In this document: one piece after another, positions 25,451 through 32,434 of the stretch
Position numbering within the stretch: position 1 is the first letter of the stretch
Layout: each line of letters opens with the position of its first letter
NCBI RefSeq assembly: GCF_009914755.1
Contig: NC_060947.1
Strand: one strand, 5' to 3'
Length of the DNA stretch: 64,000 nucleotides
DNA from: the human T2T-CHM13v2.0 reference genome, Homo sapiens
Notes under the pieces: generated by a model
What the model saw: the letters and a program-made list of their open reading frames with translations, nothing else
What the model was told of the DNA's origin: nothing
Databases searched by the model: none
Program-made: the position numbers and the translations under genes

Positions 25451-25896
25451 TGAACCAGTTTCTGCCAGATTAAAAGAATGAAACTTCCATACATGTCATT
25501 GGAAATAACACTGTGTTTTCCTCTCACACAATGAGACAGAGATGAGCAAATGTCTTTTCAATCTCTGATAACTAAGTACTATTACCAAGGAAGATTGAAC
25601 AGCTAAACGTCTTCACAGTTTCAACACTAACGCTAGCCACGTGTCATATGTTAAACACCTCAAATAAGATATACTGAGGCAAACATTCACATAACCAAAG
25701 CAAAGTAGAAATCGTTTTTTATAAACAACTCGAGATAATTGGCTGAAAATGATTAGTGAGAGTTCCTCAAAGGCTCGTCAGCATAGGCAACTACAATATT
25801 AAATCTTGTTACTCTGATTTCCGGCAAGATAGCCAAACAGGAAAAGCTCTGGTCTGCAGCTCCCAACAAGACCGAGGCAGAGGGCGGGTGATTTCT

Positions 25897-26140
25897 CGAG
25901 GTCAGGAGATGGAGACCATCCTGGCTAACATGGTGAAACCCTGTCTCTACTAAAACTACAAAAAAAAAAAATTAACTGGGCATGGTGGCAGGCGCCTGTA
26001 GTCCCAGCTACTCGGGAGGCTGAAGCAAGAGAATGGCGTCAACCTGGGAGGCGGAACTTACGGTGAGCCGAGATTGCACCACTGCACTCCAGCCTGGGCG
26101 ACAGAGCGAGACTCCATCTCAAAAAAAAAAAAAAAAAAAA
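25897..26140 (+). mobile_element. 5'-truncated AluY inside the L1 5'UTR
   Basis: GGAGATGGAGACCATCCTGGCTAAC and GAGAATGGCGT Y diagnostics; 17-bp TSD GA(G/A)GGCGGGTGATTTCT at 25880-25896 and 26141-26157. Confidence 0.95.
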
Positions 26141-26337
26141 GAAGGCGGGTGATTTCTGCATTTCCAACTGAGGCAAACAGGGTCTGGAGTGGACCTCCAG
26201 TAAACTCCAACTGACTTGTTAGAATGAAAACTAACAAAGAAAGGAATTCCATCAACATCAACAGAAAGGACTCCCACACCAAAACCCCATCGGTAGGTCA
26301 CGAACGTCAAAGACCAAAGGTAGATAAAACCACAAAG

Positions 26338-27359
26338 ATGGGGAGAAACCAGCGCAGAAAGGCTGAAAATTCCAAAAACCAGAACGCCTCTTCTCCTTCA
26401 AAGGATCACAACTCCTCACCAGCAGGGAAGAAAACTGGACAGAGAATGAGTTTGACAAACTGACAGAAGTAGGCTTCAGAAGGTGGGTAATAACGAACTC
26501 CTCCAAGCTAAAGGAGCATGTTCTAACCCAATGCAAGGAAGCTAAGAACCTTGAAAAAAGGTTAGACGAATTGCTAACTAGAATACCCAGTGTAGAGAAG
26601 AATATAAATGACCTGATGGAGCTGAAAAACACAGTATGAGAACTTCGTGAAGCATACACAAGTTTCAATAGCCAAATAAATCAAGAGGAAGAAAGGATAT
26701 CAGTGATTGAAGATCAACTTAATGAAATAAAGCAAGAAGACAAGATTAGAGAAAAAAGAGTGAAAAGAAAAGAACAAAGCCTCCAAGAAATATGGGACTA
26801 TGTGAAAAGACCAAATCTACGTTTGATTGGTGTACCTGAAAGTGACGGGGAGAATGGAACGAAGTTGGAAAACACTCTGCAGGATATTATCCAGGAGAAC
26901 TTCCCCAACCTAGCAAGGCAGGCCAACATTCAAATTCAGGAAATACAGAGAACACCACAGAGATATTCCTCAAGAAGAACCCTAAGACACATAATCATCA
27001 CATTCACCAAGGTTGAAATGAAGGAAAAAATGTTAAGGGCAGCCAGAGAGAAAGGTCAGGTTACCCACAAAGGGAAGCCCATCAGACTAACAGCAAAACT
27101 CTTGCCAGAAACCCTGCAAGCCAGAAGAGAGTGGGGGCCAATACTCAACATTCTTAAAGACAAAAATTTTCAACCCAGAATTTCATATCCAGCCAAACTA
27201 AGCTTCATAAGTGAAGGAGAAATAAAAGCCTTTACAGACAAGCAAATGCTGAGAGATTTTGTCACCATCAGGCCTGCCTTACAAGAGCTCCTGAAGGAAC
27301 CACTAAACATGGAAAGGAACAACCGGTACCAGCCACTGCAAAAACATGACAAATTGTAA
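26338..27359 (+). pseudogene. L1 ORF1p, disrupted (frameshift near 26425 and an internal stop)
   Basis: MGRNQRRKAENSKNQNASS...; downstream EIWDYVKRPNLRLIGVPE...ARREWGPI...YPAKLSF...RDFVT. Confidence 0.95.
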
Positions 27360-27421
27360 GACCATCGACGCTATGAAGAAACTGCATCAACTAACGGGCA
27401 AAATAACCAGTTAGCATCATA

Positions 27422-31446
<4,025 letters not shown>

Positions 31447-32434
31447 ACAATGAGAACACATGGACACAGGAAGGGGAACATCACACTCTGGGGACTGTTG
31501 TAGGGTGGGAGGAGGGGGGAGGGATAGCATTAGGAGATATACCTAATGCTAAATGACGAGTTAATGGGTGCAGCACACCAGCATGGCACATGTATACATA
31601 TGTAACAAACCCGCACGTTGTGCACATGTACCCTGAAACTTAAAGTATAATAATAATAAAAAGAAAATGTGGCACATATACACCGTGGAATACTATGCAG
31701 CCATAAAAAAGGATGAGTTCATGTCCTTTGTAGAGACATGGATGAAGCTGGAAATCATCATTCTCAGCAAACTATCACAAGGACAAAAAACCAAACACTG
31801 CATGTTCTCACTCATAGGTGGGAACTGAACATTGAGAACACTTGGACACAGGAAGGGGAACATCACACACAGGGGCCTGTCATGGGGTAGGAGGACGGGG
31901 GAGGGATAGCATTAGGAGAAATACCTAATGTAAATGATGAGCTGATAGGTGCAGCAAACCAACATGTCACATGTATACCTATGTAACAAACCTGCACGTT
32001 GTGCACATGTACCCCAGTACTTAAAGTATAATAACAAAAAAGAAAAAAAAATCTTGTTACTCACTGAATAGTTGGCCACTGTTAATATTATTACTACTTT
32101 TTACTTACAAAAAACTCCACACACTTCTGTTAGTTTTAATCAAGATGTTCAGTTAAAAAATAAATAGTTCAAGATCTTATTTTAAAAAGAGGCACAATTA
32201 TCTATAGATTTTTCATTTATCCACAGCAGTTTCATTTAGCATAATGGATAAATTATCTTCCCATTTTCCCCTCTACTGTCCACTTCTGTCCACTCTGAAG
32301 TCTCTGGGATCAAAAAGCCCCTCATCAGCAGCAAAGCAAAATGCTTTGTGTACCAGCCTGTTTCTTCTCTACCAACTATTTGCCTTCCTTGCTCCTTTTA
32401 CTTCAATCCTTTTATGTTAACCAAACTCCCCACC

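What the first reader, a model, noticed from the sequence alone, without database searches (positions are those of the whole stretch)
26160..26200. L1 retrotransposed from a spliced RNA (SpIRE-like) using an older-family acceptor
Seen: the 5'UTR is only ~260 nt once the Alu is removed, and reads ...TTTCCAACTGAG|GCAAACAGGGTCTGGAGTGGACCTCC (junction 26172/26173). Established, from remembered consensus: the L1 donor near +97 is CTGAG|GTACC, and in L1PA4-7 GCAAACAGGG is preceded by ATACCCAG. The missing ~0.75-0.8 kb is therefore an exact GT...AG intron. As I recall, described SpIREs use acceptors at 622, 790 and 976. This acceptor seems to lie in the 129-bp ZNF93-bound segment lost during L1PA3 evolution, so it may be a different class specific to older families (inference).
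Basis: partly seen in the sequence, partly recalled or inferred. Interest (0 to 1): 0.7.

Follow-up and report, generated by a model that had tools for sequence, protein, structure and literature searches.

The report
One-off spliced LINE-1 copy on chrX
This dead LINE-1 jumping-gene copy lacks most of its promoter region, cut exactly between splice signals, so it was likely copied from a spliced RNA, a known kind of dead-end insertion, here using a splice site found at no other place searched in the genome.

Summary
The junction at 26172/26173 is real. The element has an exact 14-nt target-site duplication and a 262-nt 5'UTR once the Alu is removed. In unspliced relatives the missing piece starts GT (22 of 23) and ends AG (21 of 24); it is 877-882 nt in the closest kin and 769 nt in an L1PA5-like copy. 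The 5' break is the published SpIRE donor (G98U99). Splicing before retrotransposition is the best explanation (about 0.8). Larson 2018 already described an acceptor inside the 129-bp ZNF93 segment (SpIRE97/853); this junction uses the next AG, 20 nt further on, and occurs only at this locus, against 73 hits for the 853 junction with a matched probe. An inverted copy of the 5' end inside ORF2 carries the same junction and dates it to about the time of insertion. By-products matter more than the locus: 97/853 has about 48 separate insertions (9 published), and 18 independent loci share an unlisted donor-97 junction that removes a 217-nt GT-AG intron.

The parts
25801..25814 (+). 5' target-site duplication of the original L1 insertion
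   Evidence: 14 of 14 identical to 32049-32062
25815..25896 (+). L1 5'UTR exon 1, first 82 nt
   Evidence: aligns to the 5' end of unspliced kin L005
25897..26157 (+). 5'-truncated Alu with poly(A) and the second copy of its 18-nt duplication (26140-26157); AluY-like (family name recalled)
   Evidence: (D16); absent from the inverted copy, so inserted after it
26158..26172 (+). end of exon 1, up to the published donor (L1 nt 97)
   Evidence: followed by GT in 22 of 23 unspliced relatives; 97 nt from the TSD
26172..26173 (+). junction: donor 97 joined to the AG 20 nt downstream of the published 851/852 acceptor (97/873 in Larson numbering)
26173..26337 (+). remaining 5'UTR (165 nt), with a separate 19-20-nt deletion near 26212-26216
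26338..27360 (+). ORF1 remnant, out of frame early with many stops
27681..27900 (-). inverted copy of 99 nt of 5' flank plus the spliced L1 5' end (25716-26197 without the Alu), inserted in ORF2
   Evidence: 200 of 220 aligned positions identical; carries the same junction
29400..31667 (+). piece of a younger L1 with its own 3' end and short poly(A), joined in register to the older element; 5' switch point lies upstream of 29400 and was not located
   Evidence: 96-97% identity to 39 other copies, 94-96% from 29383, against about 90% to the kin of the 5' part
31661..32048 (+). original 3' end and poly(A) of the old element
   Evidence: second 3' end, 86-92% to the first; ends at the 3' TSD
32049..32062 (+). 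3' target-site duplication

Best explanation
This L1 has a 5'UTR joined exactly from the known L1 splice donor to an AG, and it likely arose when an L1 RNA of the L1PA6/L1PA7 period was spliced at a rarely used acceptor and then retrotransposed once. Shown: junction, GT and AG in unspliced kin, TSD, poly(A), single locus. Inferred: the spliceosome passed the usual acceptor (851/852, the T-richer tract) and used the next CAG 20 nt on; both ORFs stayed outside the intron, so the RNA could be inserted in cis by target-primed reverse transcription; the copy lost about 880 nt of internal promoter and was a dead end. Soon after, a templated inverted copy of its 5' end was inserted in ORF2; later came the Alu and a younger L1.
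For: 5' break at the published donor and 3' break after AG (PMC5860796). With exact anchors on both sides and any gap of 5-35 nt, 46 of 49 hits are the 853 junction, 2 are this locus, 1 is unrelated sequence; no other break position was seen. In a census of donor-97 junctions (91 rows, 63 loci sorted by eye), 41 loci join the donor to a distant L1 site: 10 published classes, 18 at an AG shown, 9 at AGs shown, 2 ambiguous, 1 untested, 1 not at AG. One of them is a singleton at an AG just upstream of the 622 acceptor, the same pattern as here. The inverted copy shares the junction, with 1 shared against 6 and 5 private substitutions over 105 sites, so the junction is about as old as the insertion. 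Intact TSD.
Against: Only one locus, against 73 hits for 97/853. The join has a 3-nt AG/G overlap that also suits a deletion. The acceptor tract is weaker (T fraction 0.31 against 0.45). Larson's RT-PCR of a construct with the 129-bp segment reported the 851/852 product, not this one. The element has another 19-20-nt deletion 40 nt away, and 1 of 29 relatives (L030) has a 20-nt deletion 3 nt out of register in this same interval. No RNA evidence was obtained.
Confidence: 0.8

Rival explanations
1. An ordinary SpIRE97/853 that lost the 20 nt between the two AGs by a short DNA deletion, either in this copy or in its source element.
For: 97/853 is common (73 hits, about 48 insertions). The 20 nt lie between short direct repeats (AG, or CAG in the source). 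A 20-nt deletion in this interval exists in L030, and the window has a second 19-20-nt deletion.
Against: Among unspliced copies with exact anchors, all 23 shortened ones lose 3-13 nt and none loses 20 nt (the number of normal copies was not counted). The deletion must predate the early inverted duplication. No source lineage with it was found.
Confidence: 0.12
2. A plain 880-nt deletion or reverse-transcriptase template jump at the AG/G microhomology, unrelated to splicing.
For: Unique junction; 3-nt overlap; the locus shows other rearrangements (inverted templated copy, chimeric 3' half). One long-range donor junction in the census is not at an AG (motif g).
Against: The break would have to hit the donor among about 1000 positions, of which 24-29 carry AGG. 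No off-splice break was seen in the neighbourhood tested, and long-range joins at this point end at AG in at least 37 of 41 loci.
Confidence: 0.08
3. One reading: a recurring, undescribed SpIRE class specific to older L1 families.
For: The AG is conserved in 23 of 25 unspliced older copies and lies in the segment lost from young families.
Against: Four searches found only this locus, while a matched control recovered 9 of 9 published 97/853 loci. The idea of an old-family acceptor in the ZNF93 segment is published.
Confidence: 0.03

Closest known systems
SpIRE97/853 (Larson et al. 2018, PMC5860796)
   Same: Same donor G98U99, acceptor in the same 129-bp ZNF93-bound segment, intra-5'UTR splice, TSD and poly(A), L1PA5-PA6 age range or just older.
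   Different: Acceptor 20 nt further downstream: all nine published copies keep those 20 nt. None of the nine is on chrX. Single locus, from a lineage that falls outside the group holding the paper's PA5/PA6 copies.
SpIRE97/622, 97/790, 97/976 (Larson 2018; Belancio 2006 and 2008 as cited there)
   Same: Same donor; retrotransposed spliced L1 RNA.
   Different: Other acceptors; recurrent classes (116, 4 plus 4 non-reference, and 11 copies in the paper).
Templated (inverted) insertions from nearby DNA, and L1/L1 chimeras made when a new L1 joins an old one by homology (both recalled; Gilbert 2005 was not held)
   Same: The 220-nt inverted copy in ORF2 and the in-register young 3' piece look like these.
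   Different: Secondary events at this locus; mechanisms not tested here.

Membership tests
SpIRE (intra-5'UTR) | 5' break exactly at donor G98U99 | tested here: met
   GT follows in 22 of 23 relatives; 97 nt from the TSD
SpIRE (intra-5'UTR) | 3' break exactly after an AG of the unspliced element | tested here: met
   AG in 21 of 24 and 23 of 25 relatives
SpIRE (intra-5'UTR) | TPRT hallmarks: TSD and poly(A) | tested here: met
   14-nt exact TSD and A-rich tail
SpIRE (intra-5'UTR) | junction present from the time of insertion | tested here: inconclusive
   inverted copy shares it; 1 shared against 6 and 5 private substitutions; small numbers, no orthologues available
SpIRE (intra-5'UTR) | the splice is observed in RNA | not testable with these tools
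   no RNA data; Larson reported 851/852, not this AG
SpIRE97/853 | exon 2 starts right after A851G852 | tested here: not met
   window starts 20 nt later
A recurrent new SpIRE class (97/873) | several independent TSD-flanked loci | tested here: not met
   one locus; control found 73 hits for 97/853
L1PA6 or L1PA7 subfamily | diagnostic match to a subfamily consensus | tested here: inconclusive
   no consensus library; tree places it with 877-882-nt-intron kin, outside the group with the paper's PA5/PA6 copies (support 0.995) and next to an older group; names partly recalled

The most novel reading that the evidence does not exclude
This copy is one point in an uncatalogued long tail of donor-97 splice products fixed in the human genome. 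The published SpIRE list misses a recurrent class (donor 97 joined to an AG 217 nt downstream, at least 18 independent L1PA4-PA6-like loci, more than the published 97/790, 97/853 or 97/976 counts), misses about 80% of 97/853 insertions including older families, and misses several rarer acceptors. The genome would then hold a family-by-family fossil record of L1 acceptor choice over about 30 million years.
Probability: 0.7. Interest if true: 0.42.

Novelty: new member of a known kind. Interest (0 to 1): 0.3.

Why it matters
The locus itself matters little: a dead, antisense intronic L1 in SLC25A53 that adds one minor acceptor and pushes SpIREs to the L1PA6/PA7 boundary. The wider point is that SpIRE counts (about 2% of full-length L1PA1-6 in Larson 2018) came from four probes with a 95% identity cut-off. 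Donor-anchored searches show more classes and more copies, so splicing removed more L1 progeny than counted, and acceptor turnover can be tied to 5'UTR changes in each family.

Tried and rejected
Further copies of the junction: exact 19-mer (1 hit), 33-mer with 3 mismatches (2 hits, both here), 24-mer with 3 mismatches (6 hits; 2 here, 4 non-L1 chance matches), gapped anchors, and a 110-nt probe (40 scored of 1743 candidates; none but the query spans the junction). could not match this junction because of its last pattern letter, so it says nothing on 97/873 copy number. Idea that a source lineage had lost the 851/852 AG: kin L009 has CTG there and 7 copies genome-wide match that variant, but L009 shares only 1 rare allele with the window, so no link was shown. 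Idea of a source lineage with the 20 nt deleted: none found. Locating the old/young switch: one search failed because the young copy was only 1.4 kb; only bounds it upstream of 29400. Two rows of the tree (L043, L054) are truncated copies with false long branches, so the root is unreliable; L015 and eight duplicated 853 loci were left out. Belancio 2006 and 2008, Gilbert 2005 and Jacobs 2014 could not be read (not held).

Full report
Observation. The window reads CCAACTGAG|GCAAACAGGG at 26172/26173. The element runs from 25815 to 32048 between two identical 14-nt repeats. Without the Alu (25897-26157, own 18-nt duplication) there are 97 nt before the junction and 165 nt after it to the ORF1 start, 262 nt in all. 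ORF1 is broken. By the hub's annotation it lies in an intron of SLC25A53, antisense to the gene.

What is missing. A search with the 588 nt after the junction scored 40 of 5284 candidates and gave 29 other loci. In these the donor motif is followed by GT in 22 of 23 distinct copies and the exon-2 start is preceded by AG in 21 of 24. The gap is 877-882 nt in five of the closest kin and about 1020-1074 nt in an older group; it is 769 nt in an unspliced L1PA5-like copy, in which the 622 acceptor falls 525 nt after the donor as expected. A tree of 51 exon-2/ORF1 stretches puts the window with the 877-882 kin (nearest L005, 7.1% divergence), outside the group holding the copies that Larson labels PA5/PA6. 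I call this the L1PA6/PA7 boundary; no consensus library was available, so the name is partly recalled.

What is published. I read Larson et al. 2018 (PMC5860796): abstract, sections 16 and 21, part 1 of sections 17 and 39, search passages, S1 Data parts 12-13 and S1 Table part 2. It describes four acceptors for donor G98U99: 620/621, 788/789, 974/975 and 851/852. The last lies in the 129-bp ZNF93 segment, was seen by RT-PCR, and has nine genomic copies (PA4-PA6), none on chrX. All nine keep 20 nt in front of the motif at which the window's exon 2 starts. So the window uses the next AG, 97/873 in their numbering. Part 1 of S1 Table and most of S1 Data were searched but not read; the window's TSD does not occur in the supplements as held, where long sequence runs are cut. 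Passages of Law and Burns 2025 (10.1101/2025.02.02.635956), Fernandes (10.1101/429613), the PLoS primer (PMC5860798) and Ilik 2024 (PMC10901741) add no acceptor. Four literature searches found no later SpIRE catalogue. Belancio 2006 and 2008 were not held, so an acceptor listed only there cannot be excluded.

Is it a class? No. The junction was found only here: 1 exact hit, 2 hits with a 33-mer and 3 mismatches, and 2 of 6 with a 24-mer, the other 4 being non-L1. The matched 33-mer for 97/853 gave 73 hits and recovered 9 of 9 published loci by chromosome, position and, for six, private variants (contig number read as chromosome number). With exact anchors and a free gap, 46 of 49 hits were 97/853, 2 this locus, 1 unrelated. 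These searches are lower bounds by the tool's own note.

Splice or deletion? Three results favour splicing. First, one search shows no break away from the two AGs. Second, a census of what follows the donor (a pattern that passes only part of all junctions; 63 loci sorted by eye) gave 41 long-range L1-internal joins, 15 local changes next to the donor and 7 joins to sequence I did not place. Of the 41, 10 are published classes, 27 start after an AG shown in unspliced copies, 2 are ambiguous, 1 untested and 1 not at AG. Rare and single AG joins are thus normal, including one just upstream of the 622 acceptor. Third, a 220-nt inverted copy of the 5' flank and 5' end sits in ORF2 (27681-27900; 200 of 220 identical). 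It lacks the Alu and has the same junction. Against eight kin, the two copies share 1 substitution (a CpG site) and have 6 and 5 private ones over 105 sites, so the junction is about as old as the insertion. Against splicing: the join has an AG/G overlap, the tract is weaker than at 851/852, the element has a second 19-20-nt deletion nearby, and L030 has a 20-nt deletion in this interval; but none of 23 shortened unspliced copies lost more than 13 nt there. My weights, which are judgements: splice at the second AG 0.8, 97/853 plus 20-nt deletion 0.12, plain deletion or template jump 0.08.

Later history. The stretch 30300-31660 is 96-97% identical to 39 other copies, and 29383-30358 is 94-96% identical to five of them, while kin of the 5' part match it at about 90%. 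It ends in its own poly(A), followed by a second, older 3' end that meets the TSD. A younger L1 therefore likely inserted near the old 3' end and joined upstream by homology (inferred).

By-products. (a) 97/853: of 30 fetched hits, 9 share one flank and 22 flanks are distinct (by eye); 17 unfetched hits lie on acrocentric short arms or chrY; about 48 insertions remain, against 9 published. Ten of the 22 group with the older family. (b) Eighteen loci join the donor to CAAA(C/T)GGCACACC or close variants. All 18 have unrelated flanks and 17 have a full L1 5' end. In unspliced copies this motif follows AG in 97 of the 100 listed rows (439 matches), 217 nt after the donor. Of 8 checked, 6 have an L1 3' end at the expected distance, 2 with a clear TSD and 4 unclear. 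This class is not among Larson's four acceptors.

Verdict. A real, probably spliced, single L1 insertion: a new member of the SpIRE kind with a minor acceptor next to a published one. Interest 0.3, most of it from the by-products.

Noticed in passing
L079-L096 (18 loci, e.g. G000:C2:186802095, C5:140977422, C23:94926057): Recurrent junction of donor 97 to an AG 217 nt downstream, 18 independent flanks; not among the four acceptors in Larson 2018. TSD clear in 2 of 8 checked.
   Followed up: partly
one search hits, L034-L063: SpIRE97/853 junction at 73 places, about 48 separate insertions against 9 published; 10 of 22 distinct fetched ones group with an older family; one copy is multiplied about 26 times in acrocentric and pericentromeric duplications.
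   Followed up: partly
rows, e.g. C5:132249418, C7:85496081, C12:58404027; C6:16945025, C6:19110468; C14:48613012, C23:71808171, C12:7485373; C3:42257070: Four further rare donor-97 joins (3, 2, 3 and 1 loci) that start after an AG in unspliced older copies.
   Followed up: partly
rows C2:107064134, C3:186895448, C4:187678249, C6:49050275, C6:128172677, C8:73282035, C24:14587217: Donor 97 followed directly by sequence I did not place in the L1 5'UTR; could be splices from L1 into other RNA, truncations or chance.
   Followed up: no
window 27681-27900: Inverted templated copy of 5' flank plus L1 5' end inside ORF2, made soon after insertion; about 12 nt of ORF2 are replaced at its left end. Could be a template switch during second-strand synthesis or later break repair.
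   Followed up: partly
window 29400-32048: Two L1 3' ends in tandem (spacing 382 nt); the first belongs to a younger L1 joined in register to the old one.
   Followed up: partly
L030 (G000:C8:57013330-57013935) and L007: Unspliced relatives with their own deletions of about 20 nt in or next to the ZNF93 segment; Fernandes et al. mention a 20-bp deletion there in gibbon L1PA4 (passage); whether they coincide was not checked.
   Followed up: no
L014 and L015 (G000:C23:71323892 +, 71263329 -): The same L1 twice, 60 kb apart in opposite orientation, with the same 5' flank in the stretch printed: an inverted duplication on chrX.
   Followed up: no
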